The notes under the pieces are model-generated. The model worked only from the letters and a program-made list of their open reading frames with translations, did no database searches and was not told where the DNA came from. From UHGV virus genome UHGV-1352696: a stretch of DNA of 52,011 nt; one strand, written 5' to 3'. Positions 8,363 through 51,499 of this stretch are shown here, in pieces (within the stretch, counting starts at the first letter, position 1; each line of letters starts with the position of its first letter). The translations under genes and the position numbers were made by a program. The DNA comes from a virus.

Positions 8363-8376
8363 GTTCTTCTCCTGTT

Positions 8377-9438
8377 CTACATAAAATCTAATGCATATCT
8401 ATCAATCTCCGGGAACGTTCCAACTGGTGATTTATACCACATTCCTATCTTCTTCGCTATATCTGACATACTATCAGGAATCACAGCTTCAAATGTACAC
8501 ATTCCGTTTGGATGGTCTAATGGCAATGCATCTTTCGGATACACTCCCTGTCCTAATCCATATTTATCTTCTTTAGCTCTGTTCTCACATATCCTACAAA
8601 CTCTCCCATGAAAATTACTTGTTATCCATCTATAACCAATGACAAAAGGGTCATTTTTGTTTACTGCTTCAAAACTCTGTTGGTATGCGTGTGACACTAA
8701 TGTTCTAGCAAGCCTTTGTGCATTGTAATCAACATGTCCGAACCTAAACTTATTATTTATTGTTTCTCCAACTCTGTTCGCTCTACCGCTGTTTACATCT
8801 GTTATCCTTGCTTTCCTTGTGCTATAGATTACTTTACTTACCTTTCTTGCTTTTGGGTCTACATAACTTTCAATATCACGAGCTATCTCATATGCGCTCT
8901 TTCCTTGTGCTGTTCCTATTGAGATTATCTTATTTATACTTTCCTGTGTTTGTTTGTTATAACCCCATATTGCTTTACTCAATGACCAATTATCTTGATA
9001 TACATTTCCTGTTATGATATTTCTAACAATCTGGTCTGGAACAAACTTAAATGCTTCATGTATATCAGAATCTTTAAAACCACAATATTTTAAAAATGTT
9101 CTAGTATCATATACAACCGCTTCCGAAACTGTTGTCATATTTCGAACAACACCATTTTTAATATCTTTATTTAATTGTTCAATTCTTTTTGTTATGCTCC
9201 GCTTTAGTAATATGAGGTTTTGCTTTTGCATGTTTCCATTACCCATGCTTGCTATTTGTTTTGTAACATCTTTGTACAGATTCTCATACATTTGTTTTAT
9301 ATCTTTTTGCATCTGTACTGTTGTTGTTTGCCTTACTTGTTCTGAATTCTTTAAATTAAACTTTTGTTTCATTTCACACCCCCTTTTCTGTTTTCTTCTA
9401 ATTTGTTTTCTTCGTTCCTTACAAGTATTATAATACAC
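8377..9438 (-). CDS. Head morphogenesis protein, Mu F / SPP1 gp7 family
   Basis: Motifs SAYEIARDIE, RTLVSHAYQQ and HPNGMCTFE match this family. The true start is probably the internal Met (MKQKF...). Confidence 0.8.
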   Translation of the reverse strand: MYYNTCKERRKQIRRKQKRGCEMKQKFNLKNSEQVRQTTTVQMQKDIKQMYENLYKDVTKQIASMGNGNMQKQNLILLKRSITKRIEQLNKDIKNGVVRNMTTVSEAVVYDTRTFLKYCGFKDSDIHEAFKFVPDQIVRNIITGNVYQDNWSLSKAIWGYNKQTQESINKIISIGTAQGKSAYEIARDIESYVDPKARKVSKVIYSTRKARITDVNSGRANRVGETINNKFRFGHVDYNAQRLARTLVSHAYQQSFEAVNKNDPFVIGYRWITSNFHGRVCRICENRAKEDKYGLGQGVYPKDALPLDHPNGMCTFEAVIPDSMSDIAKKIGMWYKSPVGTFPEIDRYALDFM

Positions 9439-9439
9439 T

Positions 9440-9475
9440 ATAACAACATAAAAGTCAACACTTATTTAAAACTTT
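9440..9475 (-). promoter_or_regulatory. Sigma-70-like promoter (TTGACT-17-TATTAT) upstream of the Mu-F-like gene
   Basis: Minus-strand read: TTGACTTTTATGTTGTTATAGTGTATTATAAT. Confidence 0.45.
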
Positions 9476-11041
9476 TTATTCTTCTTCAAGTTTTGTTTGT
9501 GTTTCAATTTGTTGTACATTCTTTTCTACTTGGTTCTGTGTTCCAATATCATCAAGCTCACTCTGTACCTGTGTATTCATGCTCATGCTATCAAACATAT
9601 TATTTTCTATTGCTATTTGCATAAGTTCATCATCAATCTGTGCATCTGTTTTAAATTCATCCTTTCTCCACTTCTTAATGTATGACTTTCTACTTCTAGC
9701 ATTTGCCGCAATCTCTGAAAGATCTGACGCTTTTTCATCATCTTCATCTTCCATAAGAGCATAGTGTTCTAAAATATTAATGTTATACTGTATTTCGTCC
9801 AATCCTGTTAAAACATACCTTGAAACAACTTTTTCTTTGTTTAGCATTGCAATATCCAAAATACATTCAACAACAAACTCTAACGCTGGAATCCACGCTT
9901 TCATCTTTTCATCACATCTTACTTGTAATGGATAATATAATGCTTTTAATGCTTTTCCACTTGTTATTGTTCCCGCCATTGTCTCTTCTGAAATGTTTGG
10001 TATATCAAGCTCTCCATACATTGTTGTTTTAATTCTGTCTAGCGTTGCTTTAACACTCTCTGTATGATTCATCTGCGGTGCTAATGTTCCGACTTGCGGA
10101 TTTACTTCATTTTGATTTTGTTCTGAACGTAAGTCCCAATATGCACCAGCTCCACTGCTTAGGTTAGCTGTTGTTTCTGAATTCATATCCACTGTATAAC
10201 GAATAGGATTCATTCCTTTTCTTTCACTGTCTATATCTGCATTTCCAAGTCTACTATATCCAGCTTCATACATTGCTAAGTCTTCAATTTCCGATACACC
10301 TAGCTTATCAATCAGTGTTCCATCATTCAGAATAACAACTGCTGGGATATAGTCAAGCTCGATTATCTGTTCTTTTACAACTTCCTGTTCTACATTTCCA
10401 AGTCCATTATACAGAATAGAACTAAAATGTATTTGTCCATTTATTTCTTCATATCTGTTTACTAAATATTTCTTTTGGTTTGTTTGTCTTGTTCTGTTCA
10501 CACTCTCAAAACTTATAAACTTTGTTAATCTGTCTGAACCGTAGTCTGTCTCGTAATAAAACTGCAAACTGTTATAAAAATGTGTTTGTATTCCATCCTG
10601 TTTTGAAAAGTCAACCAAACATGCTACACGCTTTCCGATAAAACAATCTTTTGCACTTTGTAACAATGTTCTTGAAAAATTACTGTTCTTTAAAACCTTG
10701 TTTACTAATGTTTGATACTGCTGTATTTGTTCTGTGTTTTCTTCATCAACATAATTTTGTTGTATTAAAAAATCAGGTGTTTGACTGAACATAAATCTTG
10801 CTTCTTTATCAATCAATGTTTTTGCAATTTTAAACCTAACATCTGATGCTACATAATCCCCTGCTGTTCCCTCTGTTATAAATTCAGCGCCTTTTTTATA
10901 ATCAATATAGTTTTGTTGTATCTGTAACAATTCTTGTGTATATAAATTATATCCCTCTTCTATTTCATTTCTTAAAACAAAATAAGGAAAATTTCTTAAT
11001 GCTTGTATTACTTCAACACTATGTTGTTTATTACTAGCCAT
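9476..11041 (-). CDS. Portal protein
   Basis: 521 aa with an acidic C-terminus. Followed by a Mu-F-like head protein. Size and position are typical of portal genes. Confidence 0.75.
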   Translation of the reverse strand: MASNKQHSVEVIQALRNFPYFVLRNEIEEGYNLYTQELLQIQQNYIDYKKGAEFITEGTAGDYVASDVRFKIAKTLIDKEARFMFSQTPDFLIQQNYVDEENTEQIQQYQTLVNKVLKNSNFSRTLLQSAKDCFIGKRVACLVDFSKQDGIQTHFYNSLQFYYETDYGSDRLTKFISFESVNRTRQTNQKKYLVNRYEEINGQIHFSSILYNGLGNVEQEVVKEQIIELDYIPAVVILNDGTLIDKLGVSEIEDLAMYEAGYSRLGNADIDSERKGMNPIRYTVDMNSETTANLSSGAGAYWDLRSEQNQNEVNPQVGTLAPQMNHTESVKATLDRIKTTMYGELDIPNISEETMAGTITSGKALKALYYPLQVRCDEKMKAWIPALEFVVECILDIAMLNKEKVVSRYVLTGLDEIQYNINILEHYALMEDEDDEKASDLSEIAANARSRKSYIKKWRKDEFKTDAQIDDELMQIAIENNMFDSMSMNTQVQSELDDIGTQNQVEKNVQQIETQTKLEEE

Positions 11042-11065
11042 ATAATACTATACTCCTTTCTATTA

Positions 11066-11102
11066 TATAATATATTATAATATATAAATATATATAAGTC
11101 AA
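11066..11102 (-). promoter_or_regulatory. Sigma-70 consensus promoter (TTGACT-17 nt-TATAAT) driving the portal gene
   Basis: -35 at 11102..11097 and -10 at 11079..11074 on the minus strand. RBS GAAAGGAG upstream of the ATG at 11041. Confidence 0.6.
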
Positions 11103-11133
11103 TAATTATTTTATGTTTTTATATATAACAAAA

Positions 11134-11151
11134 GGGTGGATTTCTCCACCC
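11134..11151 (-). terminator. Rho-independent terminator after the lysin gene
   Basis: GGGTGGA-TTTC-TCCACCC hairpin. On the minus strand it is followed by TTTTGTTATATAT. Confidence 0.6.
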
Positions 11152-11167
11152 CCATTAAATGTTTGTT

Positions 11168-12082
11168 TTAGAATAACTGGAATCTATCAATAGGAACACC
11201 ATATGCACCAGCATATCCATCTTGTCCGCCTGTTGTTTCGTCATTATACTGCCATGAATAATATCCTCGCTTTACTGGTGACACTCTATACTGCGCTTTC
11301 TGCCAACTTCCTACTGGTGGATGATAAATAACTTGTATTGCATCAATAACTTTACCAACTCCGGCATATCCATTGTTACTATCATTCCAATTACAACCGG
11401 AAACATATGGTAGCCATCTTCCACCAAGAACATGAACTCTATAACTTACTGAACCAACATCACACTTAATTGCAATGTCTGTTATCTTTCTACCTTGTAC
11501 ACCAGCAAAATCTTGTAGGTTTCGAACAAATGGATATATTGTTCCTCCCTCTACTCTTACTGCATATGTAAAATTAACTGGTACATTATAATGTCCTCCA
11601 CTTGGCTGTGGTGTTGTTACTCCTGTTACTGTTACTCCATTACCATAATCAATATCACAAAGCTTTAAAAGGTGCGTGAACCTGTTCTGTGACAAATTAG
11701 CTATTCTTACACCATAAGCTGAACCATCTGCGGCAATGTATTTATCATCTCCGAGATAAATTCCAATATGTCCTTTCATCCATACTGCCCAACCAATGTT
11801 ATTGTTTGTTCTTTGTGAGATTGGAATAACTTCCACTGCTGTTTCTTTATATTGGTAACTGCCACGCATTTTACCAGTATACCAACTAATTAATCCACTA
11901 CAATCTACACATACTTTTCCGGCTTTGTTATCGTCACTATACCAAACACAGTTAGAACCATATGTTCTTCTTAACTCTCTGATTCTATCCAGTGTTACAA
12001 CTTCTCCTTTTGCCCCATAAATGTATGGAGTTCCAACTTTACTCTTTGCGAAATCAATTAACCCTTGTACTGTTTTACTCAT
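11168..12082 (-). CDS. Endolysin: N-terminal NlpC/P60 cysteine peptidase domain plus a C-terminal putative cell-wall-binding domain
   Basis: GTPYIYG...VDCSGLISWY (catalytic Cys) ... KGHIGIYLGDDKYIAADGS (His). 304 aa. Directly downstream of the holin. Confidence 0.8.
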   Translation of the reverse strand: MSKTVQGLIDFAKSKVGTPYIYGAKGEVVTLDRIRELRRTYGSNCVWYSDDNKAGKVCVDCSGLISWYTGKMRGSYQYKETAVEVIPISQRTNNNIGWAVWMKGHIGIYLGDDKYIAADGSAYGVRIANLSQNRFTHLLKLCDIDYGNGVTVTGVTTPQPSGGHYNVPVNFTYAVRVEGGTIYPFVRNLQDFAGVQGRKITDIAIKCDVGSVSYRVHVLGGRWLPYVSGCNWNDSNNGYAGVGKVIDAIQVIYHPPVGSWQKAQYRVSPVKRGYYSWQYNDETTGGQDGYAGAYGVPIDRFQLF

Positions 12083-12137
12083 ATACCTCTATAATCTCCT
12101 TAAATGCCCCTAGAATCAATTTTAATATGCTACACTA

Positions 12138-12383
12138 CTATTCCTTAGCTTCTACCTCTTTAATGCCTGCAATGCTCGTTAAAAGGCTTACAACACCAGC
12201 TACTACACTTGCAGATACTACCATCTTCCAATCTACTGAACTAATAACCACACTAGAACCAATTACACCAATAGCCGCCTGTGCCATTGTTTTAATTGCT
12301 CTTATGCTTGCCGCCTTAAGCCATTCAACAGTATCAACACTTGGTTTAAATACACAATTTTTAAACATGTTTTTTACCTCCAT
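12138..12383 (-). CDS. Holin (two transmembrane segments)
   Basis: 81 aa: MEVKNMFKNCVFKPSVDTVEWLKAASIRAIKTMAQAAIGVIG... plus a second hydrophobic segment. Adjacent to the lysin. Confidence 0.75.
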   Translation of the reverse strand: MEVKNMFKNCVFKPSVDTVEWLKAASIRAIKTMAQAAIGVIGSSVVISSVDWKMVVSASVVAGVVSLLTSIAGIKEVEAKE

Positions 12384-12708
12384 TTTCTAATTGACATAAC
12401 TCTAATGCATGTTTTGCTTCTCCTATTTCTTTTTCATTTCTTTCTATTGCGTCCCACTGCTGTTTCTGACCTTTTCTTACGTGTTCTTTGTATTCTTCTA
12501 TTTCTTTGTTTTGTTTTTCTAGTTTCTCATTTTGTTCTTTCATTTCTTTTGCTAACTGTTCTACTCTTAGTGTTAATTCTGTCATTGCTTTTGTGTTTTC
12601 GCTTAATGGTCTATATACTGCTGTAAATATTCCAATAAGCGAACTTAAGCCTAATACTACTATGCCTATCATTTCTGCTGTTGTCACATTATGAAACCTC
12701 CTATTCAT
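12361..12708 (-). CDS. Membrane-anchored coiled-coil protein in the lysis cassette (lysis-associated, function unknown)
   Basis: N-terminal transmembrane segment (IGIVVLGLSSLIGIFTAVY), then a coiled-coil rich in E/K/Q. Overlaps the holin start. Confidence 0.5.
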   Translation of the reverse strand: MNRRFHNVTTAEMIGIVVLGLSSLIGIFTAVYRPLSENTKAMTELTLRVEQLAKEMKEQNEKLEKQNKEIEEYKEHVRKGQKQQWDAIERNEKEIGEAKHALELCQLENGGKKHV

Positions 12709-12721
12709 TCACTTTTACATT

Positions 12722-14782
12722 TTAAGCTGCCATTTTCTGCTTCCATGCTTCGATTGCAGCGGTATAAGTAGCAGAATCACGTGTTGGAATATATACCAAG
12801 CGACCCCCGATACTCCGATTACGACCACCAACACCGTAAGTCAGATCCCAACAGAAACCGCCCGCACTACCGCCATTACCCCAATAACCGCCCAATGGAG
12901 CGATACGGTAACCGTTCGAGTTGATAGTGATATATGTGTAATCACCAACAGGTAATGAACTGTTACCAAGGCATTCTGACGCAATAAATAACCAGTCACA
13001 AGCTGTTGAATATCCCATTGCTGAAATATAACCGTTTGCGTTTGTTACTGTAAATCCGGCAGGTTCATAATTTCCACTGTTCTTTGATTCTGCAAAACTG
13101 AAATCAGAACAAATATAAGGCTGACCACCGCCCATTTTTCCATTGCCCCAAATATTGATACCATAGACAAATTCCCAAATGTTGCCCCAAAAGTTTTCTT
13201 TACCTCTCCAACATACAGAAGTCTTACCGTCAACAGTGTACTCTTTAGCAACACCACCTTCATAAGTGGTTGTTTTCTCTGCCCTACCTGTACCGTTTCC
13301 AAGGCTTGCTGTACTTCCGGTTGCAGCTGCATATGAACTTGTTGTGTCACTTCCTGTAGTCCAAGGTAAGGAAACAACCCCCTGTGCAATAGCGGTCTGT
13401 AAGTTCATCATACCCATTTCAATGATCATAAGCATCTGTTCAGCAGACACCTGTTTAATCAGATCACCATGCCAGTTTGTTCCACGATTCTGTGCCATTG
13501 CTTCAATATTCGGTCTTGTAAGATTCTGTGAAGAACCGGATGCAGGTCTTGCACCTGCGATTGATGAAAACTTATCTTCACCAGTGTTCATAACCTGTTC
13601 ATCATTCAACAGATACGCACTTGCTGATGCATCGTAAATACTACCTTCATAAGCACTTGTCAGGAAATAATCAATTTCATTTCCTGATGCATCGTAGAAT
13701 GCCGGGTGAAGTCTGAAACCTGCACGTGGCTTTTCTGACACATAATAGTTTGCCTTTCTTAAGTGGTAACCAATGCCTGTATCAATAGGGTCATACTCTA
13801 CAGGACACACCAAATAATAGAACTTTGGCTGATATACCATTACCTGACCCATTGAACCATCTTCTTTGTAATCTGCATCACCGTACCATGCTACGATAGA
13901 ACCATTATCAGCAACATTACAGCGTTTACGACCACCAAACATTGTGAACTTGTCAAAATCAGAACCTTTTGAAAGGTTGGCTGCTCCGGCAAGTCGTTTG
14001 AATGTTTTATTTTTGTAATCGACCTGAATACCGACAATATCATCAGCAGTGATACCCAAATAGGCACGAATATCTGCAATATTAGCAAAAACAGTCTGCA
14101 TTGCACTCATAAATTCTGTTTTATCAACTTTATGTTCCTTTAAATTACTAACATCTTTTAGCATTTGTGTATAATCACTTGGAATTGTTCCTATTACTTC
14201 TTGTGCTTTCTTTTCAATTTCTGTTTTTTGTTCATTTGCTACTCTTAACAATTCTGCTTCAAGCTGATTATAATAGTCCTTTGCAACTTGCTCCTGTTCC
14301 TGTGTTCCATCTACTTCTAATCCCTCTAATACTTCACCATTTGCAAGTGTTGTATTCCATTCATTTGTTATAATACCATCCGTTTTTGTTTTAATCGCAC
14401 AGACAATAAAAGAGATAATACCCTTATATGCTGTTACTTTTCTGCTTAATTCCCAACTAAATGTTACGTAATCTTGTCCATCTGTTTTTAAATCTGTTAC
14501 AATATATTTGTCTTTCCCACTTTCCAACCCACTTGCATTTTGATAAATAACTCTTAGGTCTAGCTTGCTTAAGTCTATTCCATTTCCAACAAACCTTTTA
14601 CATCTGAAATATTTTCTTTCACCTTTTTCATCACTCATAACACCGAATATTCTTTCTGTGTCTGGAATAATCATTGTTCTTGTGTCTGCATCTATCTCTA
14701 TTACATCATTTGTTTCTGTTAATCCTTTCGCTACAACTTCTGCCACATTTAGCAATTCATCTACACTAGGCACTTTATACAC
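12722..14782 (-). CDS. Receptor-binding / baseplate protein. BppU-like N-terminal anchor and coiled coil. C-terminal formylglycine-generating-enzyme-like (C-type lectin fold) domain.
   Basis: C-terminal motifs ENFWGNIWEFVYG and GGYWGNGGSAGGFCWD...GGRLVY resemble FGE/DUF323 signatures (GNVWEW..., RGGSW). The 3' two-thirds (12722 to about 14100) is markedly GC-richer than the rest of the genome. Confidence 0.6.
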   Translation of the reverse strand: MYKVPSVDELLNVAEVVAKGLTETNDVIEIDADTRTMIIPDTERIFGVMSDEKGERKYFRCKRFVGNGIDLSKLDLRVIYQNASGLESGKDKYIVTDLKTDGQDYVTFSWELSRKVTAYKGIISFIVCAIKTKTDGIITNEWNTTLANGEVLEGLEVDGTQEQEQVAKDYYNQLEAELLRVANEQKTEIEKKAQEVIGTIPSDYTQMLKDVSNLKEHKVDKTEFMSAMQTVFANIADIRAYLGITADDIVGIQVDYKNKTFKRLAGAANLSKGSDFDKFTMFGGRKRCNVADNGSIVAWYGDADYKEDGSMGQVMVYQPKFYYLVCPVEYDPIDTGIGYHLRKANYYVSEKPRAGFRLHPAFYDASGNEIDYFLTSAYEGSIYDASASAYLLNDEQVMNTGEDKFSSIAGARPASGSSQNLTRPNIEAMAQNRGTNWHGDLIKQVSAEQMLMIIEMGMMNLQTAIAQGVVSLPWTTGSDTTSSYAAATGSTASLGNGTGRAEKTTTYEGGVAKEYTVDGKTSVCWRGKENFWGNIWEFVYGINIWGNGKMGGGQPYICSDFSFAESKNSGNYEPAGFTVTNANGYISAMGYSTACDWLFIASECLGNSSLPVGDYTYITINSNGYRIAPLGGYWGNGGSAGGFCWDLTYGVGGRNRSIGGRLVYIPTRDSATYTAAIEAWKQKMAA

Positions 14783-14788
14783 CTCCTC

Positions 14789-15097
14789 TTATGTTTGTTC
14801 TATATATGCCCTGTTTGTTGTTATTCTTGTTTTATTACTTTTTCCTGTTAGTTCAAAATAAAACATACTTCCATGTGTTACATTTACTGGAACTGTGACT
14901 CTATCTTTTATGATTTCATTTGTTTGCTTTCCATCTACATCATAGAAACTTATAACTCTTTTTGTTTCTTTCCACTCTTGATTAAAATGAAATACCAAAC
15001 ACAAATAATTATCAGAACCTCTTACAATGTTTTCAAAGTCACATTGTTTATTTCTTCTTAATAACTGTCCAGTAACATCAAAGTGTAATTCTCTCAT
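14789..15097 (-). CDS. Hypothetical protein
   Basis: 102-aa ORF. Overlaps its upstream neighbour by 4 nt (translational coupling). Confidence 0.4.
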   Translation of the reverse strand: MRELHFDVTGQLLRRNKQCDFENIVRGSDNYLCLVFHFNQEWKETKRVISFYDVDGKQTNEIIKDRVTVPVNVTHGSMFYFELTGKSNKTRITTNRAYIEQT

Positions 15098-15354
15098 TGC
15101 TTTCCACCTCGCCTAATTATTCCGCTTGCCACTGTTCTTTCTACTGTTTCGTCATGTTCTATATTCAATGGTTCTGAATCATATGTTGCAAATACTGGCT
15201 CTCTTTCTTCTATGATTGCCATACATAATTCTATACCATTATATATTCCACAACTATAATCATCACCAATGCTTTGTGCTTGCATTCCTTTTAACTGTTT
15301 TATACTGTTCTTAATTGTTTTTAATTTCTTCCAACTTCTCAACATTCTTAGCAC
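15094..15354 (-). CDS. Hypothetical protein
   Basis: 86-aa ORF directly downstream of terL. Confidence 0.4.
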   Translation of the reverse strand: MLRMLRSWKKLKTIKNSIKQLKGMQAQSIGDDYSCGIYNGIELCMAIIEEREPVFATYDSEPLNIEHDETVERTVASGIIRRGGKQ

Positions 15355-15412
15355 CTCCTATGAGCTTCTATTCGCCACCTATAAGCCACTTTATTTCTTT
15401 AGCCTATAAATA

Positions 15413-16771
15413 CTAGCCTGCTTTACTATTTGTCTTTATTTGCTTGACATCGGCTACTGTATACTGGTCTAACGCATACCATAAGGCGCTCATGCAATGT
15501 GAATCGATATTGAATTCATCATATATTACATTTCCCTTTGAATCCTTGGCATACGTTAAGTCTTTTAGTTCCCTTATTGTATTCCTACATTTTGGTGAAC
15601 ATACTATTTTCTTAAATCTCTTTACCTTCTTTGTGTTCTGCAACCTACTTCCCGGGTATTTTCTACATGCATACATGTTGAATCCCTCTTGCCTATAGTA
15701 CTGTATATCTTTTGGTGATGCGCTATCTGCAAATATAGGCTTCTTACAATTCTCTGCTCTTTGTTTTGCTTTCCTTACTCCATCTAATAAAATAAACTTA
15801 TTGTCCGTCATATGGTTTCTGTATACTTCATCATAAATGTAAAGTATTTTGTTTTTATCATCTACTGCACAGCTAATTAGTGCATTATAACTTGTTTCAA
15901 AACCAAAATCCAAACCGAAGAAATGATATTTACTTGGTATGTTTGCTATTGTATTTGTAAATTGTTTTGCATTTGTCGCAATAGTAAATTGTGGTAGAAC
16001 TCTTGTTCCACTTGCTCCGAATCTTCCCCACCTTGCTACCGTCCATAAGTGTGGGTCATTAATCTTTAAACTATCAAGACGCTTTATATATGACACTGGC
16101 AAGAAAGGATTATCGTCTGCAATACTATGATGATAATATACTCCATTCTTTTTATTTACTAATGTTCTTCTTTTGTATATCTCCTGTTCTTCCTGTATTA
16201 CGTGTTCTTTTCCTTTATCATCTGTATGAACAAAAAATGTGTTATACACCCAATTTTCTTTCCCTGCCGGATTTGTTGTCATAATAAAGTGTAGTGACAT
16301 TTTAGGCTCTCTGATACGTCCTAGAAGCTCTGTATAAGCATCATAACGTATTTCGCTACACTCTTCCATCCAAACGATAGAAACACCATGTATGGACTTT
16401 ATTTTCTCTACATTGTCCATTCCTCTAAATATGATTCTACTACCATTTGAAAATCTTACTTCCATTGGTGACATAACCGCTACAGCCTTTCCATTCTTAG
16501 GCAAGTGCTGATTAGGTAATGATTCATCACTTAACATGTTCATCTTTTCTAGTATTTCTTTAAATAATGCAAAACATGATTCTTTTATTGTTCCATATAC
16601 TTGTCTTACTACAAGGCATGTTCTTCTTTCTTCTAATAGTTTTAATATGATTTTAAGTGCTACATGGTAACTCTTACCACTACCATATCCACCGAATAAA
16701 AGGTATTGTTCATAATTCCAATCTGTTAAAAAAGTGGAGAATCTTTTCGAAACATCAATATTAACATCCAT
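15413..16771 (-). CDS. terL: Terminase large subunit (PBSX-type)
   Basis: Walker A FGGYGSGKS, Walker B VWMEEC, and a C-terminal RNase-H-like nuclease domain (FGLDFGF, ADSASPKD). 452 aa. Confidence 0.9.
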   Translation of the reverse strand: MDVNIDVSKRFSTFLTDWNYEQYLLFGGYGSGKSYHVALKIILKLLEERRTCLVVRQVYGTIKESCFALFKEILEKMNMLSDESLPNQHLPKNGKAVAVMSPMEVRFSNGSRIIFRGMDNVEKIKSIHGVSIVWMEECSEIRYDAYTELLGRIREPKMSLHFIMTTNPAGKENWVYNTFFVHTDDKGKEHVIQEEQEIYKRRTLVNKKNGVYYHHSIADDNPFLPVSYIKRLDSLKINDPHLWTVARWGRFGASGTRVLPQFTIATNAKQFTNTIANIPSKYHFFGLDFGFETSYNALISCAVDDKNKILYIYDEVYRNHMTDNKFILLDGVRKAKQRAENCKKPIFADSASPKDIQYYRQEGFNMYACRKYPGSRLQNTKKVKRFKKIVCSPKCRNTIRELKDLTYAKDSKGNVIYDEFNIDSHCMSALWYALDQYTVADVKQIKTNSKAG

Positions 16772-16892
16772 GCTTCTTCTCTCCTTTTTGTTTTAATTTG
16801 TTTGTAATAGCAGAAAAGGACAGATACATCACTGTGCATCTGCCTTTCTGTTTGAATTAATTATACCATATTATATTTTATACGTCAATGCT

Positions 16893-17260: not shown

Positions 17261-17332
17261 TGGACTATATAGGAATCGAACCTATTACTCTTCGCTTATG
17301 AGGCGACTGTTCTACCAATGAACTAATAGTCC
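17261..17332 (-). tRNA. tRNA-Met (anticodon CAU; could be initiator or elongator Met, or a lysidine-modified Ile2 tRNA)
   Basis: Minus-strand read GGACTATTAGTTCATTGGTAGAACAGTCGCCTCATAAGCGAAGAGTAATAGGTTCGATTCCTATATAGTCCA. 7-bp acceptor stem GGACTAT/ATAGTCC. T-arm ATAGG-TTCGATT-CCTAT. Anticodon loop CTCATAA. No encoded CCA. Confidence 0.8.
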
Positions 17333-18196: not shown

Positions 18197-18224
18197 ATTA
18201 TAACACAACAAAACAAAAAGTCAA
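18197..18224 (-). promoter_or_regulatory. Sigma-70-like promoter (TTGACT-16-TATAAT)
   Basis: Minus-strand read TTGACTTTTTGTTTTGTTGTGTTATAAT. Confidence 0.55.
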
Positions 18225-47299: not shown

Positions 47300-48295
47300 T
47301 TAAATTGTTGCATCTTTGTATTTTCCATTTACTTTTACTTTTACAATTCCTGTACTGTATTTTCCATCTTTTCTATACATCATACCAGTTTTGTACTTGC
47401 TACTTTGTTTTGTGTAACAATTAGCTTGTAACTTAAATATTGCATATAATGTTATATTTGCTGTTATTATGCTCGTTTCTTCAATATATGAACCACTTCC
47501 ATTTTGATTTGTATTCCAGCCTAAAAATTCATAGTTCAGCCTTTTTGCTGTTGGTAGTTCTCCTAACCTGTCTCCATAATATACGGTTCGTACAATCGAA
47601 TCAGAACCATTAACAGTTCCACCATTTGAACCTGCATCAAATTTGACAGCACAACTTATTCTCTCCCATACTGCATATAAATCTACATTTCTTTCATACG
47701 TCCATGTCCATGGCTTTCCAATCCACGAAGTCCAGTCCACTCCATTACTTTCCCTCCAACCTTTAAACACATAGCCATTTCTTGTAAAAAAGTTTTTTTG
47801 TGTAACATAACTCGAACCATAGTAAACTTGTTCTGACCATCTATCCTTTTGATTCCACAGACCACCATTTCCATAATAAGTAATTGTATATTTGTCTATT
47901 GCCGGAATTGTAAAGTTTACACTTATTGTGTACGAATCTCCGCCACCATATTCAATTCCAGTAAACCTAGCAGAACATGTATCAATAGAACTAGATGTTC
48001 CTCTGTCGTATGTTTTGCTGTATGTTCCAATTAAGACTTGGTTTGCTGTATCCCAACTATGTCCAGAACTTGTGTTGATATTTCTACTTCCAATACTTGA
48101 ACTTGCTGAACTGCCCCAATCAAAATAAAATGTATTAGAACTATCTTGACAAGAATATTGTGACCAATACCATATTTGCACTGTTACTTCCGTTTTGGTT
48201 TTGCTGTTAGAAGAATCAACATATAAACCAATACAACCTTGATATTTTGTTCCTGTTGAAACGGAACTCCATTGTATGCCGCTTGGTGCTGACAT
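47300..48295 (-). CDS. Receptor-binding / tail fibre protein with two Listeria-Bacteroides (Flg_new) repeats
   Basis: YTITYYGNGGLWNQ...NGYVFKGWRE and CAVKFDAGSNGGTVNG...NYEFLGWNT match the Flg_new pattern. Confidence 0.65.
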   Translation of the reverse strand: MSAPSGIQWSSVSTGTKYQGCIGLYVDSSNSKTKTEVTVQIWYWSQYSCQDSSNTFYFDWGSSASSSIGSRNINTSSGHSWDTANQVLIGTYSKTYDRGTSSSIDTCSARFTGIEYGGGDSYTISVNFTIPAIDKYTITYYGNGGLWNQKDRWSEQVYYGSSYVTQKNFFTRNGYVFKGWRESNGVDWTSWIGKPWTWTYERNVDLYAVWERISCAVKFDAGSNGGTVNGSDSIVRTVYYGDRLGELPTAKRLNYEFLGWNTNQNGSGSYIEETSIITANITLYAIFKLQANCYTKQSSKYKTGMMYRKDGKYSTGIVKVKVNGKYKDATI

Positions 48296-48307
48296 ATATC
48301 ACACCTC

Positions 48308-49018
48308 CTAACCAGTAATACGGATATAGATATCTCCGTTTTTTCCTGTTGAATCACTAGGTTCTGATGTTCCTTGCCTGATTGTTGGCATTGCATCTAT
48401 CTTTTTGTTAATCTCATTAATTTGATTTTGTAAACTTGTTGCCACATCTCCGCTAAGCTGTCCTTTAATTCCATTAAACCATTCATTGAACATTGATGTA
48501 AATTGTGAAAATAAATCAGATGTACTTATCTGCTGAACAACCCCTGTTACGAACCCACACACTTCATTATATGGTCGCATATCCGTTACGTCTGATGCAC
48601 TTAAGTTTGTAGCACCAACAGGCTTTCTTATTGTTGCTAATTGCAGTTCCTTAACTGTTGATGTTCTTGAAACACTTGCATTGTTCTGTTTTAGCTCAAG
48701 CGACATTTTTCTATTCACTTTATCAAGTCTTACGACAACTGAATCTTGTTGAACATATGATGCACTATTAACCGGTATTGTTAATGTTTTATTTTCTGTT
48801 AGTTCATAATAATATCCATCTATATAAGCACTTCCGGCTTTTACTGTTACTTTCAATCCGCTCTGAATTGACACTTTCAACCCATCTGTAGGTTCTACAA
48901 ATACGCCATTACCGATAAACTTTGAAAAATAATTTGCAAAATCTTCCGCATTATATGTTCTGTCATAAACACCGGTACTTGTTTCTACCGCATTAAAAAA
49001 ACCATACCTTTCTGACAT
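48308..49018 (-). CDS. Tail fibre / baseplate protein
   Basis: 236 aa. N-terminal MSERYGFFNAVETSTGVYDRTYNAEDFANYF pattern typical of Gram-positive phage tail/baseplate proteins. Located between Tal and the receptor-binding protein. Confidence 0.5.
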   Translation of the reverse strand: MSERYGFFNAVETSTGVYDRTYNAEDFANYFSKFIGNGVFVEPTDGLKVSIQSGLKVTVKAGSAYIDGYYYELTENKTLTIPVNSASYVQQDSVVVRLDKVNRKMSLELKQNNASVSRTSTVKELQLATIRKPVGATNLSASDVTDMRPYNEVCGFVTGVVQQISTSDLFSQFTSMFNEWFNGIKGQLSGDVATSLQNQINEINKKIDAMPTIRQGTSEPSDSTGKNGDIYIRITG

Positions 49019-49042
49019 ATCAAATCACTCCTTTCAATTATT

Positions 49043-50551
49043 TTATATCTTTCTTCCACTCCATGTTCCACCATTTCTAAAACCAATGTAAAAATTATTT
49101 GAAACGTCAACCATCATTATCACGCCATCTTTTCCTCCATTTGTTACAAACACTCCTTTTGAATATGTTGGTATTGTCAAACCGCTTGGAAATGGAACAT
49201 TACTCTTCGCATGAACAAAAAACGATTTATTGTCTTGTGGAAGATTATCTATATTTTTTGCAAGAGCATCTGCTTTCAAATTTTTAAGTGACAAAACATC
49301 ATTCTTAACACCATCAAGTCCAGTTTCTAACTTCTTTGTATTTGCTTCAATGTATTTAACATTAACATTGTTTTCTTCAACTTTTTTTATTGCGGTTTCT
49401 GACCTTTCTATAACATCTTTGATTCTTGAACCATATGTAAATTCTATATCAATTATATTTCTGTCGTCCTGTCTCGTTATAATCACATTTGTAATTTGTG
49501 CATCTATCTCCATTCCAAGTTCTTCATCTGCTACTGTTACAAAATCACCAACGTTATAATCTTTTTTGTATGTATATTGTTTTGTTATATCTGTTACTGT
49601 TGCTGTGTACTCTTCACTCAAATCATTGTCTTTAGCTTTTTCATCCGCCCTTTGTTTCATGAGTTCTTCATACTCTGCATCCGTTAATGTTACATTATCC
49701 TGTTCACTTTGAACATCCCTTGCATCAACCCACAACTCTCTTCTGTTCCAACCTTTACGCTCTCCAAAAGTAACATCTGAATTAACATCTATGTTGTACC
49801 ACTTTCTGTCTGTTCCCTCTCCCTCTCCTGCAATATATACTGTATTTCTTAGCTTACTTCTATCAACTATGTAGTCTGTGTTTGCTATATTGCTTAATGA
49901 TTGAGAGAACATAACAGAACTAACTGCATTGTTTGCCCTATGTCTTGTTCTATCTTCACCAGCTCCAATTATCAATGTCCATCCGTCAATGTTCTGATGG
50001 TGTTCTGTATTAACAACTACAACATTTGGTCTTAATATGATTCTTAATTTGTCTGCTTCTGCAACCTCACTAATTTCATCCCACAATGAACCGCCTGTCA
50101 CTTGCTTGTCTATAATACTGCATACTTGTTTTAATCTTTCTTCATCCTCGAATTCAACTGAAAGTGCAATATTTCTATTGCTATCGTCTGACATTATAAG
50201 ATTTTGTTTTACCAACTCTTCAATATATTTATAACTTTTTCCTTTAAATGTCACTTGTCCTTTAATAACTCTATATTCTAACAGTTTTAATGCAAGACTA
50301 CCTTTTATTACAAACACCTTGCTTGTTTCACTATCACTTTCACGCTTTACTGACTCAATAACTCCAAAAACATCATTATCAAACAGAACATAAAAGTTTT
50401 TTGTTTTGTCCATCAAATATAAGTTTTCTTTGTCAAGCATTGCATTTATTTGAAATGTTCCTATTTCTCTTGCCTTATACTGATACTGCGAATATTCATA
50501 CTTACGGAGAACATCAACTATACGCATTGTATCGTCTAATATTGTTATCAT
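49043..50551 (-). CDS. Tail-associated lysin / tail endopeptidase (Tal)
   Basis: 502 aa, immediately after Dit. Conserved siphovirus Dit-Tal order. Confidence 0.65.
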   Translation of the reverse strand: MITILDDTMRIVDVLRKYEYSQYQYKAREIGTFQINAMLDKENLYLMDKTKNFYVLFDNDVFGVIESVKRESDSETSKVFVIKGSLALKLLEYRVIKGQVTFKGKSYKYIEELVKQNLIMSDDSNRNIALSVEFEDEERLKQVCSIIDKQVTGGSLWDEISEVAEADKLRIILRPNVVVVNTEHHQNIDGWTLIIGAGEDRTRHRANNAVSSVMFSQSLSNIANTDYIVDRSKLRNTVYIAGEGEGTDRKWYNIDVNSDVTFGERKGWNRRELWVDARDVQSEQDNVTLTDAEYEELMKQRADEKAKDNDLSEEYTATVTDITKQYTYKKDYNVGDFVTVADEELGMEIDAQITNVIITRQDDRNIIDIEFTYGSRIKDVIERSETAIKKVEENNVNVKYIEANTKKLETGLDGVKNDVLSLKNLKADALAKNIDNLPQDNKSFFVHAKSNVPFPSGLTIPTYSKGVFVTNGGKDGVIMMVDVSNNFYIGFRNGGTWSGRKI

Positions 50552-50554
50552 GTT

Positions 50555-51499
50555 CTACATCCCCCTTATGTTGAAATATTGTTCCCTGTACTCAAAACTA
50601 ACATCCATAACACCATCACTTGGCTGTGTTTCGTAAGAATAATAATTCTTACCAATGAGTATTTTAAACAGCTTATAACCAACTTCCATATTCCCAACAA
50701 TAGAAGCTTCGTCACCGCTTTGTGTATGTAATTTAACACTTTCTTCTCCTATGTTAGTATTTATAACAATTTCATCACCAGCCGACATACTCAGAGAAGA
50801 AAATATAATTTTTGCATCTTCTGCTATACTATTTACTTGCTGTGTTATTAGGAAATCACTAATTGCTTTCATTCGTATAATACAACCAACTGGAACATCA
50901 CCATTGTTTTCAATCAATACAATTTTCTTACTATGTTCTATCCCCATTGTTATTCCTTTTGTTTTAGGAATCGTTAGTGGAAATTTAAACTTGTTCTCAA
51001 GAACAGAAAAATTAATTGTTTTTGTTTCCTTATAAAACATTGGATTGAAGCATTCAAACTCCAAAATAAACTTACATAGAACCTCATTGTTTTCTTTATA
51101 AGTATTAGAATATTTTGGTGGTGCTGTTGGTCTTGCATCTAAGTAAAATCCATTTGCTTCAATCACAATTTCTTGATATATAGAAATCATTCTATCTAGT
51201 TCTTCCTTTTTGTCTTGTACTGCTGTTTCACAGTTCTCCCAGTATTGTTCCCATGTGCTTGTTTGTTCTACATCCTTAGCAACAACATATCCTGTTATAG
51301 TTGGCTTTCTTGTTCCAACTGTTAAACCAGCATAAGACTGCCCTATTTGATAAGGCACTCTATATGCTGACATTTCTACGCTAGGTGTATCCCAGTCAAT
51401 TTCATCAATGATATAATAACCATCTTTTGAATCAATAACAATACTGTCTTTTGTTACGCTATTTGTTAGTGTAACTTTTTTGACCATTGTTTTCACCAC
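50555..51499 (-). CDS. Distal tail protein (Dit)
   Basis: 314 aa, immediately after the tape measure protein. Confidence 0.65.
   Translation of the reverse strand: MVKTMVKKVTLTNSVTKDSIVIDSKDGYYIIDEIDWDTPSVEMSAYRVPYQIGQSYAGLTVGTRKPTITGYVVAKDVEQTSTWEQYWENCETAVQDKKEELDRMISIYQEIVIEANGFYLDARPTAPPKYSNTYKENNEVLCKFILEFECFNPMFYKETKTINFSVLENKFKFPLTIPKTKGITMGIEHSKKIVLIENNGDVPVGCIIRMKAISDFLITQQVNSIAEDAKIIFSSLSMSAGDEIVINTNIGEESVKLHTQSGDEASIVGNMEVGYKLFKILIGKNYYSYETQPSDGVMDVSFEYREQYFNIRGM

What the first reader, a model, noticed from the sequence alone, without database searches (positions are those of the whole stretch)
11066..15354. Non-canonical late-region synteny: receptor-binding protein and complete lysis cassette inserted between terL and portal
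The order terL -> two small ORFs -> receptor-binding protein -> membrane coiled-coil protein -> holin -> NlpC/P60 lysin -> terminator (11134-11151) -> consensus promoter (11066-11102) -> portal is unusual. The large terminase is normally followed directly by portal, and lysis genes normally follow the tail genes.

The remaining tail genes and a second, Flg_new-type receptor-binding protein sit about 20 kb further along the transcript. The cassette is bounded by its own terminator and promoter. That fits a mobile or exchangeable module.
Basis: partly seen in the sequence, partly recalled or inferred. Interest (0 to 1): 0.6.

Follow-up and report, generated by a model that had tools for sequence, protein, structure and literature searches.

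The report
Lysis and fibre genes between terL, portal

Summary
The gene order is real. The window is a complete, circularly permuted 52-kb siphophage genome, transcribed almost entirely on the minus strand. The order is terL, two small ORFs, a 686-aa tail fibre/RBP, a membrane coiled-coil protein, an r1t-type holin, an NlpC/P60 endolysin, a terminator, a promoter, then portal.

Of 72 related IMG/VR contigs, all 62 with portal identity of 48% or more have the same block. Seven of nine at 40-48% have an endolysin-bearing gap there. GenBank phages CS266P1-4 and Dulem virus 36 also have the block. Only relatives at about 36-38% portal identity have terL beside portal.

The block has no recombinase, no flanking repeats and no promoter of its own. 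I infer that it is co-transcribed with terL.

The contents do turn over. The same slots hold at least 10 endolysin clusters and about 19 large-ORF clusters, and cultured relatives lack the fibre gene. The fibre's C-terminal domain is 95.9% nucleotide-identical to a Lachnospira eligens prophage fibre. It also carries a DGR variable region, although the window has no template repeat or reverse transcriptase.

Interest is modest.

The parts
16860..16888 (-). Sigma-70-like promoter upstream of terL (TTGACG-17-TATAAT with an extended -10 TG). It is the inferred start of the terL-fibre-lysis transcription unit.
   Evidence: 11 of 12 matches, TG present. The layout is conserved upstream of terL in all subclades.
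16811..16850 (-). Leader hairpin followed by a U-run, between the promoter and the terL start codon. It resembles an attenuator or terminator.
   Evidence: dG -20.4 kcal/mol, z = -4.9, 0 of 200 shuffles fold as well. Hairpins of different sequence sit at the same place in diverged relatives. No Rfam match.
15413..16771 (-). Large terminase (terL), intact in the window.
   Evidence: Terminase_3 1.4e-56 and Terminase_3C 1.9e-35. In many relatives terL is split by inserts that carry HNH ORFs.
15094..15354 (-). Small ORF s86 (83-86 aa), function unknown. It is the most conserved member of the block.
   Evidence: A homolog lies directly after terL in 62 of 62 relatives with portal identity of 48% or more. 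No Pfam or PHROG hit.
14789..15097 (-). Small ORF s102, a partner of the BppU-type fibre.
   Evidence: phrog_19695 8e-14. It is 37% identical (5e-14) to FP_oengus gp63, which likewise directly precedes the homologous tail protein gp64. It mostly co-occurs with RBP_N.
12722..14782 (-). 686-aa tail fibre / receptor-binding protein. It has an N-terminal beta-sandwich anchor (about aa 25-158), a long coiled coil (aa 161-241) and an imported C-terminal receptor-binding domain (aa 235-686).
   Evidence: phrog_5302 'tail protein' 5.7e-89. Best fold hits are the TP901-1 baseplate protein BppU (4v96) and the 80alpha baseplate (only the N-terminal part of the model is confident). The C-terminal 1,356 nt are 95.9% identical to a Lachnospira eligens prophage gene that sits between Tal and the lysis genes. 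GC is 42.3% against a genome mean of 33.0%.
12798..12904 (-). Orphan DGR variable region at the 3' end of the fibre gene.
   Evidence: Against the prophage template repeat there are 22 mismatches at 35 TR adenines and 0 at 72 other positions. No TR or RT exists anywhere in the window.
12361..12708 (-). 115-aa protein with an N-terminal transmembrane segment and a coiled coil. It overlaps the holin start and is probably a lysis accessory.
   Evidence: phrog_1009 1.7e-9 and a weak 'Rz-like spanin' hit. A homolog lies directly before the holin in most relatives.
12138..12383 (-). Holin.
   Evidence: Phage_r1t_holin 8.8e-15. phrog_443 'holin' 9.7e-18.
11168..12082 (-). Endolysin: an NlpC/P60 catalytic domain plus a C-terminal wall-binding region.
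   Evidence: NLPC_P60 at 24.2 bits against a cutoff of 23. phrog_3393 and phrog_22474 'endolysin'. The same slot in relatives holds Amidase_3, Amidase_2, GH25, GH24, CHAP and Phage_lysozyme2 enzymes.
11132..11153 (-). Intrinsic terminator that closes the terL-fibre-lysis unit.
   Evidence: 9-bp stem, 5 GC pairs, then TTTTGTTAT. A hairpin plus T-run of differing sequence occupies this place in every subclade.
11074..11102 (-). Sigma-70-like promoter for portal and the head and tail genes (TTGACT-17-TATAAT).
   Evidence: 11 of 12 matches. TTGACA-17-TATAAT is conserved 30-50 nt upstream of portal in all but one of the 43 distinct relative sequences.
9476..11041 (-). Portal protein, first gene of the head-tail unit.
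   Evidence: SPP1_portal 2.3e-13. phrog_64.
47300..51499 (-). Distal end of the canonical tail module: Dit (50555-51499), a Tal-like Sipho_Gp37 protein (49043-50551), a 236-aa protein (48308-49018) and a Flg_new-repeat protein (47300-48295). No lysis genes follow it.

Best explanation
The window is the complete genome of a virulent-type siphophage from the human gut, probably infecting Lachnospira eligens or a close relative.

Its late region is organised as two transcription units. The first appears to run from a promoter and hairpin leader, through terL, two small ORFs, an accessory baseplate fibre (RBP), a membrane coiled-coil protein, the holin and the endolysin, to an intrinsic terminator. 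The second starts at a consensus promoter directly in front of portal and continues through the head and tail genes.

This layout is equivalent to swapping the usual 'portal-to-tail' segment with the 'fibre + lysis' segment. It arose once, deep in this phage lineage, and has been inherited ever since. It is not a mobile cassette.

The position is fixed, but what fills it is not:
- Endolysin catalytic and wall-binding domains are replaced freely.
- The fibre gene is gained, lost and re-tipped.
- In this genome the fibre's receptor-binding domain was recently copied from the DGR-diversified tail fibre of a temperate L. eligens phage, without the retroelement's template repeat or reverse transcriptase.

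Shown here: the gene identities, the conserved order, the conserved terminator/promoter layout, the content turnover and the horizontal origin of the fibre tip. Inferred: co-transcription with terL, a regulatory role for the leader hairpin, virion attachment of the fibre through its BppU-like N-terminus, and its accessory (dispensable) status.
For: Genome and gene content
- The genome is circular, and all late genes lie on one strand.
- No second lysin, integrase or RT was found among the ORFs scanned.

The same order in relatives
- CS266P1 and CS266P3 and Dulem virus 36 share it.
- Of 72 IMG/VR contigs, 62 of 62 with portal identity of 48% or more have a 1.7-6.9 kb gap. The s86 homolog is present in 62 of 62 and the holin homolog in 60 of 62.
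- Seven of nine contigs at 40-48% have a gap above 1.3 kb. In each of the five gap types checked by Pfam, covering all seven, the gap ends in an endolysin gene.
- Outgroups at 36-38% have terL adjacent to portal.

Regulatory signals
- The terminator plus promoter before portal is conserved in structure despite sequence change.
- The promoter plus hairpin leader before terL is conserved in the same way.
- No regulatory signal was found at the terL/s86 junction.
- No flanking repeats were found.

Content turnover
- At least 10 endolysin clusters and about 19 large-ORF clusters occupy the same slots.
- The fibre gene is absent in L011 (93% portal identity) and in the cultured phages CS266P1, P2 and P4. 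They were isolated on the same strain as CS266P3, which has it.

The fibre
- It is 95.9% nucleotide-identical over 1,356 nt to the L. eligens prophage gene, and this stretch is the GC maximum of the genome.
- In the prophage the homolog sits in the order Tal, 79-aa ORF, fibre, DGR RT, holin, endolysin.
- VR/TR mismatches fall only at TR adenines.
- The N-terminal fold is BppU-like.
Against: - Transcription units are inferred from sequence motifs only. Promoter-like hexamers are as frequent as chance in this AT-rich genome.
- The structure model is poor: mean pLDDT 37.8, with only aa 25-158 confident. The BppU resemblance therefore rests on weak TM-scores.
- Dispensability of the fibre is inferred from natural deletion variants in the CS266P group, not tested in this phage.
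- Single origin is argued from identity bins, not from a formal tree with ancestral-state reconstruction.
- Two contigs at 42-44% portal identity have only small gaps (393 and 713 bp). The deep history therefore includes at least one loss or an independent gain.
- Not every small ORF in the genome was scanned for lysis functions.
Confidence: 0.8

Rival explanations
1. One reading: the fibre-plus-lysis block is a self-contained mobile or recently inserted cassette that landed between terL and portal.
For: - Outgroups have terL directly beside portal, so an insertion or rearrangement did happen at some point.
- A terminator closes the block.
- Block contents vary greatly.
- The s102 + fibre pair also sits next to terL, on the other side, in the unrelated Faecalibacterium phage FP_oengus.
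Against: - The block is at the same place in 62 of 62 relatives down to 48% portal identity, and in most at 40-48%.
- It has no recombinase, transposase or homing endonuclease, and no flanking direct or inverted repeats.
- It has no promoter of its own at the upstream edge.
- The 11102 promoter serves portal, not the block.
Confidence: 0.05
2. The order is an assembly or binning artefact: a chimeric contig, or a mis-joined circular permutation.
For: - The window is a metagenome-style contig that is cut inside the tape-measure gene.
Against: - The same order is seen in more than 60 independent contigs from many samples.
- It is also seen in four cultured, sequenced phages (CS266P1-4) and in a circular GenBank genome (Dulem virus 36).
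- The tape-measure reading frame closes perfectly across the window ends.
Confidence: 0.01
3. The 686-aa protein is not a virion fibre. Instead it is a soluble lysis-associated enzyme, such as a wall or capsule depolymerase released at lysis, which would explain why it sits with the lysis genes.
For: - It lies directly upstream of the lysis genes and far from the Dit and Tal genes.
- tblastn hits include a phiCp-D gene annotated 'polysaccharide deacetylase' (29% identity).
- It has no Pfam hit.
- Cultured relatives lack it.
Against: - PHROG 'tail protein' at 5.7e-89.
- The near-identical C-domain in the L. eligens prophage sits between Tal and a DGR RT, which is the classical position of a DGR-targeted receptor-binding protein.
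- The VR shows adenine-specific variation, as expected of ligand-binding C-type-lectin-fold DGR targets.
- The N-terminal domain plus coiled coil gives its best fold matches to phage baseplate proteins.
- An N-terminus conserved at 85-95% joined to swapped C-termini is the usual RBP pattern.
Confidence: 0.08

Closest known systems
Clostridium phages CS266P1-P4 (OP172775-OP172778) and Dulem virus 36 (PP511521), deposited genomes of the same clade
   Same: - terL is followed by small ORFs, then (optionally) a fibre gene, a roughly 105-aa membrane protein, a holin, an endolysin and portal.
- The tail module ends without lysis genes.
- Portal identity to the window is 75-76% (CS266P1-4) and 62% (Dulem virus 36).
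   Different: - CS266P1, P2 and P4 lack the fibre gene. CS266P1 keeps only half of a DGR template repeat where the gene would be.
- CS266P3 keeps the VR and a TR copy.
- Their endolysins are a GenBank-annotated 'CPL1 lysozyme' (CS266P1, P3) and an Amidase_3 + SH3_3 enzyme (Dulem virus 36), not NlpC/P60.
- Their terL is split by HNH-containing inserts, while the window's terL is intact.
- I found no paper in the searchable library that names the CS266P phages.
Canonical Firmicutes siphophage late region: terS-terL-portal-head-tail-RBP-holin-endolysin. Examples here are the L. eligens prophage in L053 and phiCDKH01.
   Same: - The gene families are the same, all lie on one strand, and the holin-endolysin pair directly follows the fibre gene.
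- The fibre's C-domain is 87% amino-acid identical to the prophage fibre over the aligned 514 residues.
   Different: - The 'fibre + lysis' segment and the 'portal-to-tail' segment are interchanged.
- As a result, the lysis genes lie upstream of the head genes and share a unit with terL.
Phages with other non-canonical placements: Microbacterium phages with up to 17-40 ORFs between terL and portal, or with the lysis cassette left of the structural genes (PMC7302621); RcZahn (PMC8601537); lambda and mycobacteriophage L5, whose lysis genes lie upstream of the terminase (own knowledge)
   Same: - The terL-portal junction tolerates insertions.
- Lysis-cassette position is not universal among tailed phages.
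   Different: - In those cases the inserts are mostly small ORFs of unknown function or DNA-metabolism genes, or the lysis genes precede the terminase.
- In the two full-text searches aimed at this arrangement I found no description of a fibre + holin + endolysin set lying between terL and portal.
TP901-1 BppU / BppL baseplate (PDB 4v96)
   Same: - An N-terminal beta-sandwich followed by a long coiled coil.
- 4v96 gave the best fold-search hits (E 3e-4).
   Different: - In TP901-1 the anchor (BppU) and the receptor-binding head (BppL) are separate proteins encoded inside the tail module. Here both are in one chain, encoded next to terL.
- Sequence identity is only about 12%, and the model is poor outside aa 25-158.
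Diversity-generating retroelements of phage tail fibres (Bordetella BPP-1 Mtd; gut prophage DGRs, PMC5883640)
   Same: - The VR lies at the 3' end of the fibre gene.
- Its differences from a template repeat fall only at adenines, and hypervariable codons interleave with invariant scaffold residues.
   Different: - The window has no template repeat, reverse transcriptase or accessory gene.
- The matching TR and RT sit in a different, temperate phage.

Membership tests
Holin-endolysin lysis cassette of Gram-positive phages | A small membrane protein belonging to a recognised holin family | tested here: met
   Phage_r1t_holin 55 bits against a cutoff of 26.9. phrog_443 'holin' 9.7e-18.
Holin-endolysin lysis cassette of Gram-positive phages | An adjacent gene for a peptidoglycan hydrolase with a catalytic domain plus a wall-binding domain | tested here: met
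   NLPC_P60 at 24.2 bits against a cutoff of 23, which is marginal. PHROG endolysin families at 4.6e-21 and 4.8e-17 cover aa 88-303. The orthologous slot in relatives holds clear-cut endolysins.
Holin-endolysin lysis cassette of Gram-positive phages | Demonstrated lytic activity and holin-dependent timing | not testable with these tools
   This needs expression or lysis assays.
Mobile genetic cassette (transposon, homing element or integrative module) | Encodes its own recombinase, transposase or homing endonuclease | tested here: not met
   None of the seven ORFs of the block hits such a family. HNH ORFs in relatives lie inside terL, not in the block.
Mobile genetic cassette (transposon, homing element or integrative module) | Terminal direct or inverted repeats, or target-site duplication, at the block ends | tested here: not met
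   Only short matches of chance quality were found in 10900-15600.
Mobile genetic cassette (transposon, homing element or integrative module) | Patchy presence or absence of the whole unit among close relatives, or occurrence in unrelated backbones | tested here: not met
   The block is present in 62 of 62 relatives with portal identity of 48% or more. Only sub-parts travel: the fibre tip occurs in a prophage, and the s102 + fibre N-terminus occurs in FP_oengus.
Phage receptor-binding protein / baseplate fibre (BppU-like anchor with a distal binding domain) | A conserved N-terminal anchor domain joined to interchangeable C-terminal domains among related phages | tested here: met
   RBP_N is 85-95% identical in 14 of 15 near relatives, while RBP_C is homologous in only one of them.
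Phage receptor-binding protein / baseplate fibre (BppU-like anchor with a distal binding domain) | N-terminal fold matching known baseplate anchor proteins | tested here: inconclusive
   The top Foldseek hits are 4v96 (the TP901-1 baseplate) and 6v8i (the 80alpha baseplate) at E 3e-4 to 9e-4, but TM-scores are 0.14-0.41 and the model's mean pLDDT is 37.8.
Phage receptor-binding protein / baseplate fibre (BppU-like anchor with a distal binding domain) | Presence in the virion and binding to a host receptor | not testable with these tools
   This needs virion proteomics and adsorption assays.
Diversity-generating retroelement (DGR) | A reverse transcriptase gene | tested here: not met
   tblastn with the prophage RT gave no hit in the window (best E 2.1). 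There is no YxDD-type motif ([YF][AVIMLC]DD) in any open frame longer than 200 aa.
Diversity-generating retroelement (DGR) | A template repeat cognate to the variable region | tested here: not met
   The only match to the TR or to the VR in the window is the VR itself.
Diversity-generating retroelement (DGR) | A variable region differing from a TR only at TR adenines | tested here: met
   Against the L. eligens prophage TR there are 22 of 35 mismatches at A positions and 0 of 72 elsewhere. The window therefore holds a DGR target but not a DGR.
Intrinsic terminator followed by a sigma-70-type promoter (transcription-unit boundary) | A GC-rich hairpin with a U-run, then -35 and -10 hexamers at 17-nt spacing, conserved in relatives | tested here: met
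   The layout is retained with seven or more different hairpin sequences across subclades.
Intrinsic terminator followed by a sigma-70-type promoter (transcription-unit boundary) | Mapped 3' and 5' RNA ends at these sites | not testable with these tools
   This needs Term-seq, 5'-RACE or RNA-seq.

The most novel reading that the evidence does not exclude
The fibre gene of this RT-less, TR-less virulent phage keeps a fully DGR-competent-looking variable region: the same 3' boundary sequence as the prophage VR, and mismatches to the prophage TR only at adenines.

Among 41 fibres with this phage's N-terminus, the ten hot VR positions differ at 7-8 of 10. This holds even between proteins that differ at 6 or fewer of 394 other C-domain residues.

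The most novel reading not excluded is that a DGR carried by a resident Lachnospira eligens prophage diversifies, in trans, the receptor-binding tip of a superinfecting virulent phage. The virulent phage would in effect borrow the host prophage's retroelement.

The alternative is repeated import of already-diversified prophage alleles downstream of a shared junction at aa 235. I could not separate the two.
Probability: 0.15. Interest if true: 0.8.

Novelty: new variant of a known kind. Interest (0 to 1): 0.33.

Why it matters
Annotation and module-based host or lifestyle predictors assume that terL is followed by portal, and that lysis genes and the RBP follow the tail genes. A large, abundant clade of human-gut Lachnospiraceae phages breaks both rules in a fixed, heritable way. 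Their RBP and endolysin can therefore be mis-assigned or missed; the CS266P3 fibre is unannotated because the record is cut through it.

The terL-portal interval of this clade is a natural library of endolysins and fibre tips in a constant genetic frame. That is useful for host-range engineering and for tracking host switches.

The conserved promoter-hairpin leader before terL and the terminator-promoter pair before portal give a testable model of two separately controlled late units. Cultured members (CS266P1-4) are available to test it.

The orphan DGR variable region links a virulent phage to a temperate phage of the same host. It also raises a testable question about retroelement action in trans.

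Tried and rejected
- Pfam gave no hit for the 686-aa protein or the two small ORFs. A sequence search of PDB gave nothing useful.
- The AlphaFold model from a 15-sequence alignment was poor (mean pLDDT 37.8). Only the N-terminal domain could be used, and I did not spend the second prediction job.
- Searches for a TR or RT in the window and for an RT in CS266P3 were negative.
- A search for repeats flanking the block found nothing.
- Rfam gave only two tRNAs and no match to the terL leader.
- The membrane coiled-coil protein is not detectably related to the 104-aa ORF that precedes the holin in the L. eligens prophage.
- Literature searches found no description of this arrangement and no paper in the searchable library that names CS266P1. 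They did show that insertions between terL and portal, and relocated lysis cassettes, are known in actinobacteriophages.
- I tried to decide between trans-DGR and allele import using near-identical protein pairs and lineage-specific substitutions. The result was inconclusive, because the protein database is collapsed at 90% identity and the C-domain shows no lineage-specific markers apart from the junction residue.
- I considered and rejected the assembly-artefact and whole-cassette-mobility readings (see the rival explanations).

Full report
**What the window is**

The tape-measure reading frame runs off position 1 and continues in frame at position 52011. The 52,011-bp window is therefore a complete, circularly permuted phage genome cut inside that gene.

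Almost every gene is on the minus strand. Read in the direction of transcription, the map is as follows:
- Two tRNA genes at 17491-17420 and 17332-17261.
- A 101-aa ORF.
- terL, then the block under study.
- Portal, a MuF-like head protein, scaffold, decoration protein, major capsid, connector proteins and tail tube.
- Tape measure, Dit, a Sipho_Gp37 Tal-like protein, a 236-aa protein and a Flg_new-repeat protein.
- About 30 kb of replication and recombination genes: primase, a DNA polymerase split by an HNH ORF, a UvsX-like recombinase, exonuclease, resolvases and methyltransferases.

I found no integrase, no reverse transcriptase and no second endolysin or holin among the ORFs scanned. No lysis genes follow the tail module.

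**Check of the observation**

- terL: Terminase_3 1.4e-56 and Terminase_3C 1.9e-35.
- The 686-aa protein: phrog_5302 'tail protein', 5.7e-89.
- The 115-aa protein has an N-terminal hydrophobic segment (EMIGIVVLGLSSLIGIFTAVY) followed by a charged coiled coil.
- Holin: Phage_r1t_holin 8.8e-15.
- Endolysin: NlpC/P60, just above the Pfam cutoff (24.2 against 23 bits). PHROG endolysin families back it at 4.6e-21.
- Portal: SPP1_portal.

The 126-bp spacer between the endolysin and portal holds a 9-bp GC-rich hairpin followed by TTTTGTTAT (11153-11132) and then TTGACT-17-TATAAT (11102-11074).

Promoter-like hexamers are no more frequent than chance in this AT-rich DNA (40 found, 42.5 expected). The motif alone therefore proves nothing. 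The comparative evidence below is what gives it weight.

The block does not have its own promoter. The 11102 promoter faces portal. The 58-bp spacer between terL and the first small ORF contains only a ribosome-binding site.

DNA and protein searches found cultured relatives. These are Clostridium phages CS266P1-4, isolated on Clostridium_AP sp000509125 strain DA266, with 75-76% portal identity. A circular metagenomic genome, Dulem virus 36, has 62% portal identity.

All of them show the same layout: terL, small ORFs, a roughly 105-aa protein, a holin, an endolysin, then portal. Their tail modules end without lysis genes.

Two scans of IMG/VR, using the portal protein and then a portal alignment, gave 81 distinct loci. 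Of these, 72 contain both the end of terL and the start of portal.

| Portal identity to window | Contigs | terL-to-portal gap | Content |
|---|---|---|---|
| 48% or more | 62 | 1.7-6.9 kb in all 62 | s86 homolog 62 of 62; holin homolog 60 of 62 |
| 40-48% | 9 | 1.3-2.7 kb in 7; 393 and 713 bp in 2 | in 7, the gap ends in an endolysin gene (all five gap types Pfam-checked) |
| 38% (L049) | 1 | 58 bp | terL adjacent to portal |

The endolysins in the 40-48% group are of several types: GH25 + CW_7 + LysM, GH25 + CHAP + CW_7, Phage_lysozyme2 + Amidase_2 + SPOR, Amidase_2 + SH3_3 and CHAP + CW_7. The GenBank phages bajarodcaudo virus 5 and phiCDKH01, at 36-37% portal identity, also have terL directly next to portal.

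The arrangement is therefore a derived but deep and stably inherited character of a large gut-phage lineage. That is what is found.

The full version with a fibre gene recurs in several subclades:
- 14 of 15 near relatives.
- Dulem virus 36.
- L105.
- L112, L113, L117, L118 and L120.

**No hallmarks of mobility**

The block encodes no recombinase, transposase or homing endonuclease. It has no flanking direct or inverted repeats beyond chance-level matches.

Topologically, the arrangement is a single interchange of two adjacent segments of the canonical map: 'portal to tail' (about 25 kb) and 'fibre + lysis' (about 4 kb).

**Regulatory architecture (inferred)**

In all 43 distinct sequences taken from upstream of portal in relatives, a GC-rich hairpin plus T-run follows the endolysin stop codon. 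In all but one, TTGACA-17-TATAAT (or TAGAAT) lies 30-50 nt before the portal start.

The hairpin sequences differ between subclades. Examples are GGGGTGGAGAAATCCACCC, GGCGGCAATAAGCCGCC, GGGTGGATGTTTTCCACCC, GGTGGCAGAAATGCCACC and GGGGCAGGAATTTATTTTCTGTCC. Conservation of structure despite sequence turnover argues for function.

The same holds upstream of terL. An extended -10 promoter (TTGACG-17-TGgTATAAT, 16888-16860) is followed by a stable hairpin with a U-run (16850-16811). Its dG is -20.4 kcal/mol with z = -4.9. Relatives have hairpins of different sequence at the same place. It matches no Rfam family.

My reading is that there are two late units:
- Unit 1: promoter, hairpin leader, terL, s86, s102, fibre, membrane protein, holin, endolysin, terminator.
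- Unit 2: promoter, portal, head genes, tail genes.

The leader hairpin could act as an attenuator that holds back packaging and lysis functions relative to procapsid and tail synthesis. This is inference only, and no RNA data were available.

**The contents turn over**

The ORF directly upstream of portal falls into at least 10 clusters (40% identity, 60% coverage). Together with the more distant relatives, the slot holds these catalytic types:
- NlpC/P60.
- Amidase_3, with choline-binding, ChW, SH3_3 or a shared novel wall-binding domain.
- Amidase_2.
- GH25 + CW_7 + LysM.
- GH24 + PG_binding_1.

The large ORFs in the fibre slot fall into about 19 clusters. Among the 15 nearest relatives, the fibre's first 190 or so residues are 85-95% identical in 14. 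Only one of them, L018, shares the window's C-terminal part.

L011 (93% portal identity) lacks the fibre gene altogether. So do CS266P1, P2 and P4, which plate on the same strain as the fibre-bearing CS266P3. The fibre therefore looks accessory rather than essential. The Dit, Tal and Flg_new proteins of the tail module probably provide the core adsorption apparatus.

**What the 686-aa protein is**

Only the N-terminal part of the structure model is confident (aa 25-158, pLDDT 70-87). It is a beta-sandwich followed by a long helix at aa 161-241.

Foldseek against PDB puts the 299-aa chains of the TP901-1 baseplate (4v96; BppU by my own knowledge of that structure) and the 80alpha and NF5 baseplates at the top, with E of 3e-4 to 2e-3 but low TM-scores. 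This is suggestive, not conclusive.

The 102-aa ORF just upstream is 37% identical (5e-14) to FP_oengus gp63. That gene likewise directly precedes a tail protein (gp64) whose N-terminus is 37% identical to this fibre. In that Faecalibacterium phage, the pair sits immediately upstream of terL.

**The fibre's C-terminal domain came from a prophage**

The last 1,356 nt of the gene (window 12722-14077) are 95.9% identical to a 713-aa gene of a prophage in Lachnospira eligens GCA_015553285.1.

In that prophage the gene order is tape measure, Dit, Tal (Peptidase_S74), a 79-aa ORF, the 713-aa protein, a reverse transcriptase (RVT_1), holin (Phage_holin_1), then endolysin. This is the canonical RBP position, next to a DGR.

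The imported segment has 42.3% GC. That is the highest value of any window of its size in the genome (mean 33.0%, sd 2.7%).

This points to recent horizontal acquisition. It also suggests L. eligens, or a close relative, as the host.

**An orphan DGR variable region (side finding)**

The prophage has a 107-nt template repeat (L053 12231-12337) matching the 3' end of its fibre gene, with differences at adenines.

| Variable region compared with the prophage TR | Mismatches at TR adenines | Mismatches at other positions |
|---|---|---|
| Window (12798-12904) | 22 of 35 | 0 of 72 |
| L018 | 21 of 35 | 1 of 72 |
| L059 | 27 of 35 | 5 of 72 |
| CS266P3 | 27 of 35 | 6 of 72 |

The window has neither a TR nor an RT. 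The fibre stop codon is 13 nt from the next gene.

The CS266P phages preserve successive stages of decay:
- CS266P3 retains a TR copy (92% identical to the prophage TR) but no RT.
- CS266P1 retains half a TR and no fibre gene.

Across 41 database proteins with this phage's N-terminus, ten VR positions carry 8-13 residue types. They differ at 7-8 of 10 positions on average, even between proteins with 6 or fewer differences in the other 394 C-domain residues.

The only lineage-specific residue is at the junction, aa 235. Two explanations fit:
- Repeated import of pre-diversified prophage alleles.
- Action of a resident prophage's DGR in trans on the infecting phage.

I could not separate them. 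I give the second a probability of about 0.15.

**Comparison with what is known**

The components are ordinary: an r1t-type holin, a modular endolysin, a modular fibre, an intrinsic terminator and sigma-70-type promoters.

Variation in lysis-cassette position and insertions between terL and portal are documented:
- Microbacterium phages Quhwah and Hendrix have 17 and 40 ORFs between terL and portal.
- Microbacterium cluster EL phages and Triscuit have the lysis cassette left of the structural genes (PMC7302621).
- RcZahn has many genes between terminase and portal (PMC8601537).
- Lambda and mycobacteriophage L5 place lysis genes upstream of the terminase (own knowledge).

I found no paper that describes a fibre + holin + endolysin set fixed between terL and portal, and no paper in the searchable library that names the CS266P phages. 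The arrangement does already exist, unremarked, in deposited genomes.

**Verdict**

The 'mobile module' interpretation is not supported for the block as a unit, but 'exchangeable' is right for its contents.

It is a new variant of a known kind: a clade-specific late-region architecture. Its practical relevance is for annotation and for mining endolysins and fibre tips.

Overall interest is about 0.33. The orphan DGR variable region is the most interesting lead and deserves its own follow-up.

Noticed in passing
window 12798-12904 (minus strand); L053 11960-12066 (VR) and 12231-12337 (TR); L004 28-114 (VR) and 257-363 (TR); L001 12498-12551: The fibre gene ends in a DGR variable region whose mismatches to a Lachnospira eligens prophage template repeat fall only at adenines. 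The window has no TR or RT. CS266P3 keeps the VR and a TR copy but no RT. CS266P1 keeps half a TR and no fibre gene.
   Followed up: partly
window 16811-16888 (minus strand): A consensus extended -10 promoter is followed at once by a stable hairpin plus U-run in the terL 5' leader. The layout is conserved, with different hairpin sequences, in all subclades. It may be an attenuator or antitermination site controlling the terL-fibre-lysis unit. It has no Rfam match.
   Followed up: partly
relatives L005, L008, L009, L012, L013, L019, L026, L028, L031, L035, L036, L039, L040, L045, L052, L001-L003; corresponds to window terL codons about 351-353 and 425-428: In many relatives terL is interrupted at two fixed sites by 0.85-1.1 kb inserts. 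These carry free-standing HNH (I-HmuI-like) ORFs of about 196 aa and 247 aa, and look like group I introns. The window's terL is uninterrupted.
   Followed up: no
window 34912-38455 (minus strand): The DNA polymerase is encoded in two ORFs (37226-38455 and 34912-36339, both phrog_405). They are separated by an HNH endonuclease ORF (36557-37045). This is either a split gene or an intron-containing one.
   Followed up: no
window 17261-17332 and 17420-17491 (minus strand): Two tRNA genes lie just upstream of the 101-aa ORF and terL.
   Followed up: no
L055 (Faecalibacterium phage FP_oengus NC_047916) 6631-9010: Homologs of s102 (gp63) and of the fibre N-terminus (gp64) form the same two-gene pair. 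Here they sit immediately upstream of terL in an otherwise unrelated phage, so the pair tends to lie beside the packaging genes in more than one lineage.
   Followed up: partly
OP172777.1 (CS266P3) record ends: 46742-47855 and 1-198: The GenBank record is linearised through the fibre gene, which is therefore unannotated. The two ends do not join in one frame in my simple concatenation.
   Followed up: partly
window 9430-9458, 17869-17897, 18197-18224, about 23.7 kb, 27.9 kb, 29.5 kb, 30.4 kb, 42.7 kb, 43.1 kb and 43.8 kb: Repeated intergenic motifs of 40-85 nt contain TTGAC-N17-TATAAT. Sigma-70-like promoters seem to punctuate the whole genome, including one between portal and the MuF-like gene.
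   Followed up: no
window 46613-46900 (minus strand): A 95-aa ORF with a Sigma70_r4 domain (1.1e-7) lies just after the tail module. It is a candidate phage-encoded transcription regulator.
   Followed up: no
window 685-1407 and 1420-1902 (plus strand): These two plus-strand ORFs lie entirely inside the tape-measure gene on the opposite strand and have no family hits. They are probably spurious.
   Followed up: no
L118 (IMGVR_UViG_3300045988_064560) about 5180 onward: A phage with only 60% portal identity to the window carries a fibre C-domain 89% identical to the window's. The receptor-binding tip therefore moves between subclades.
   Followed up: no
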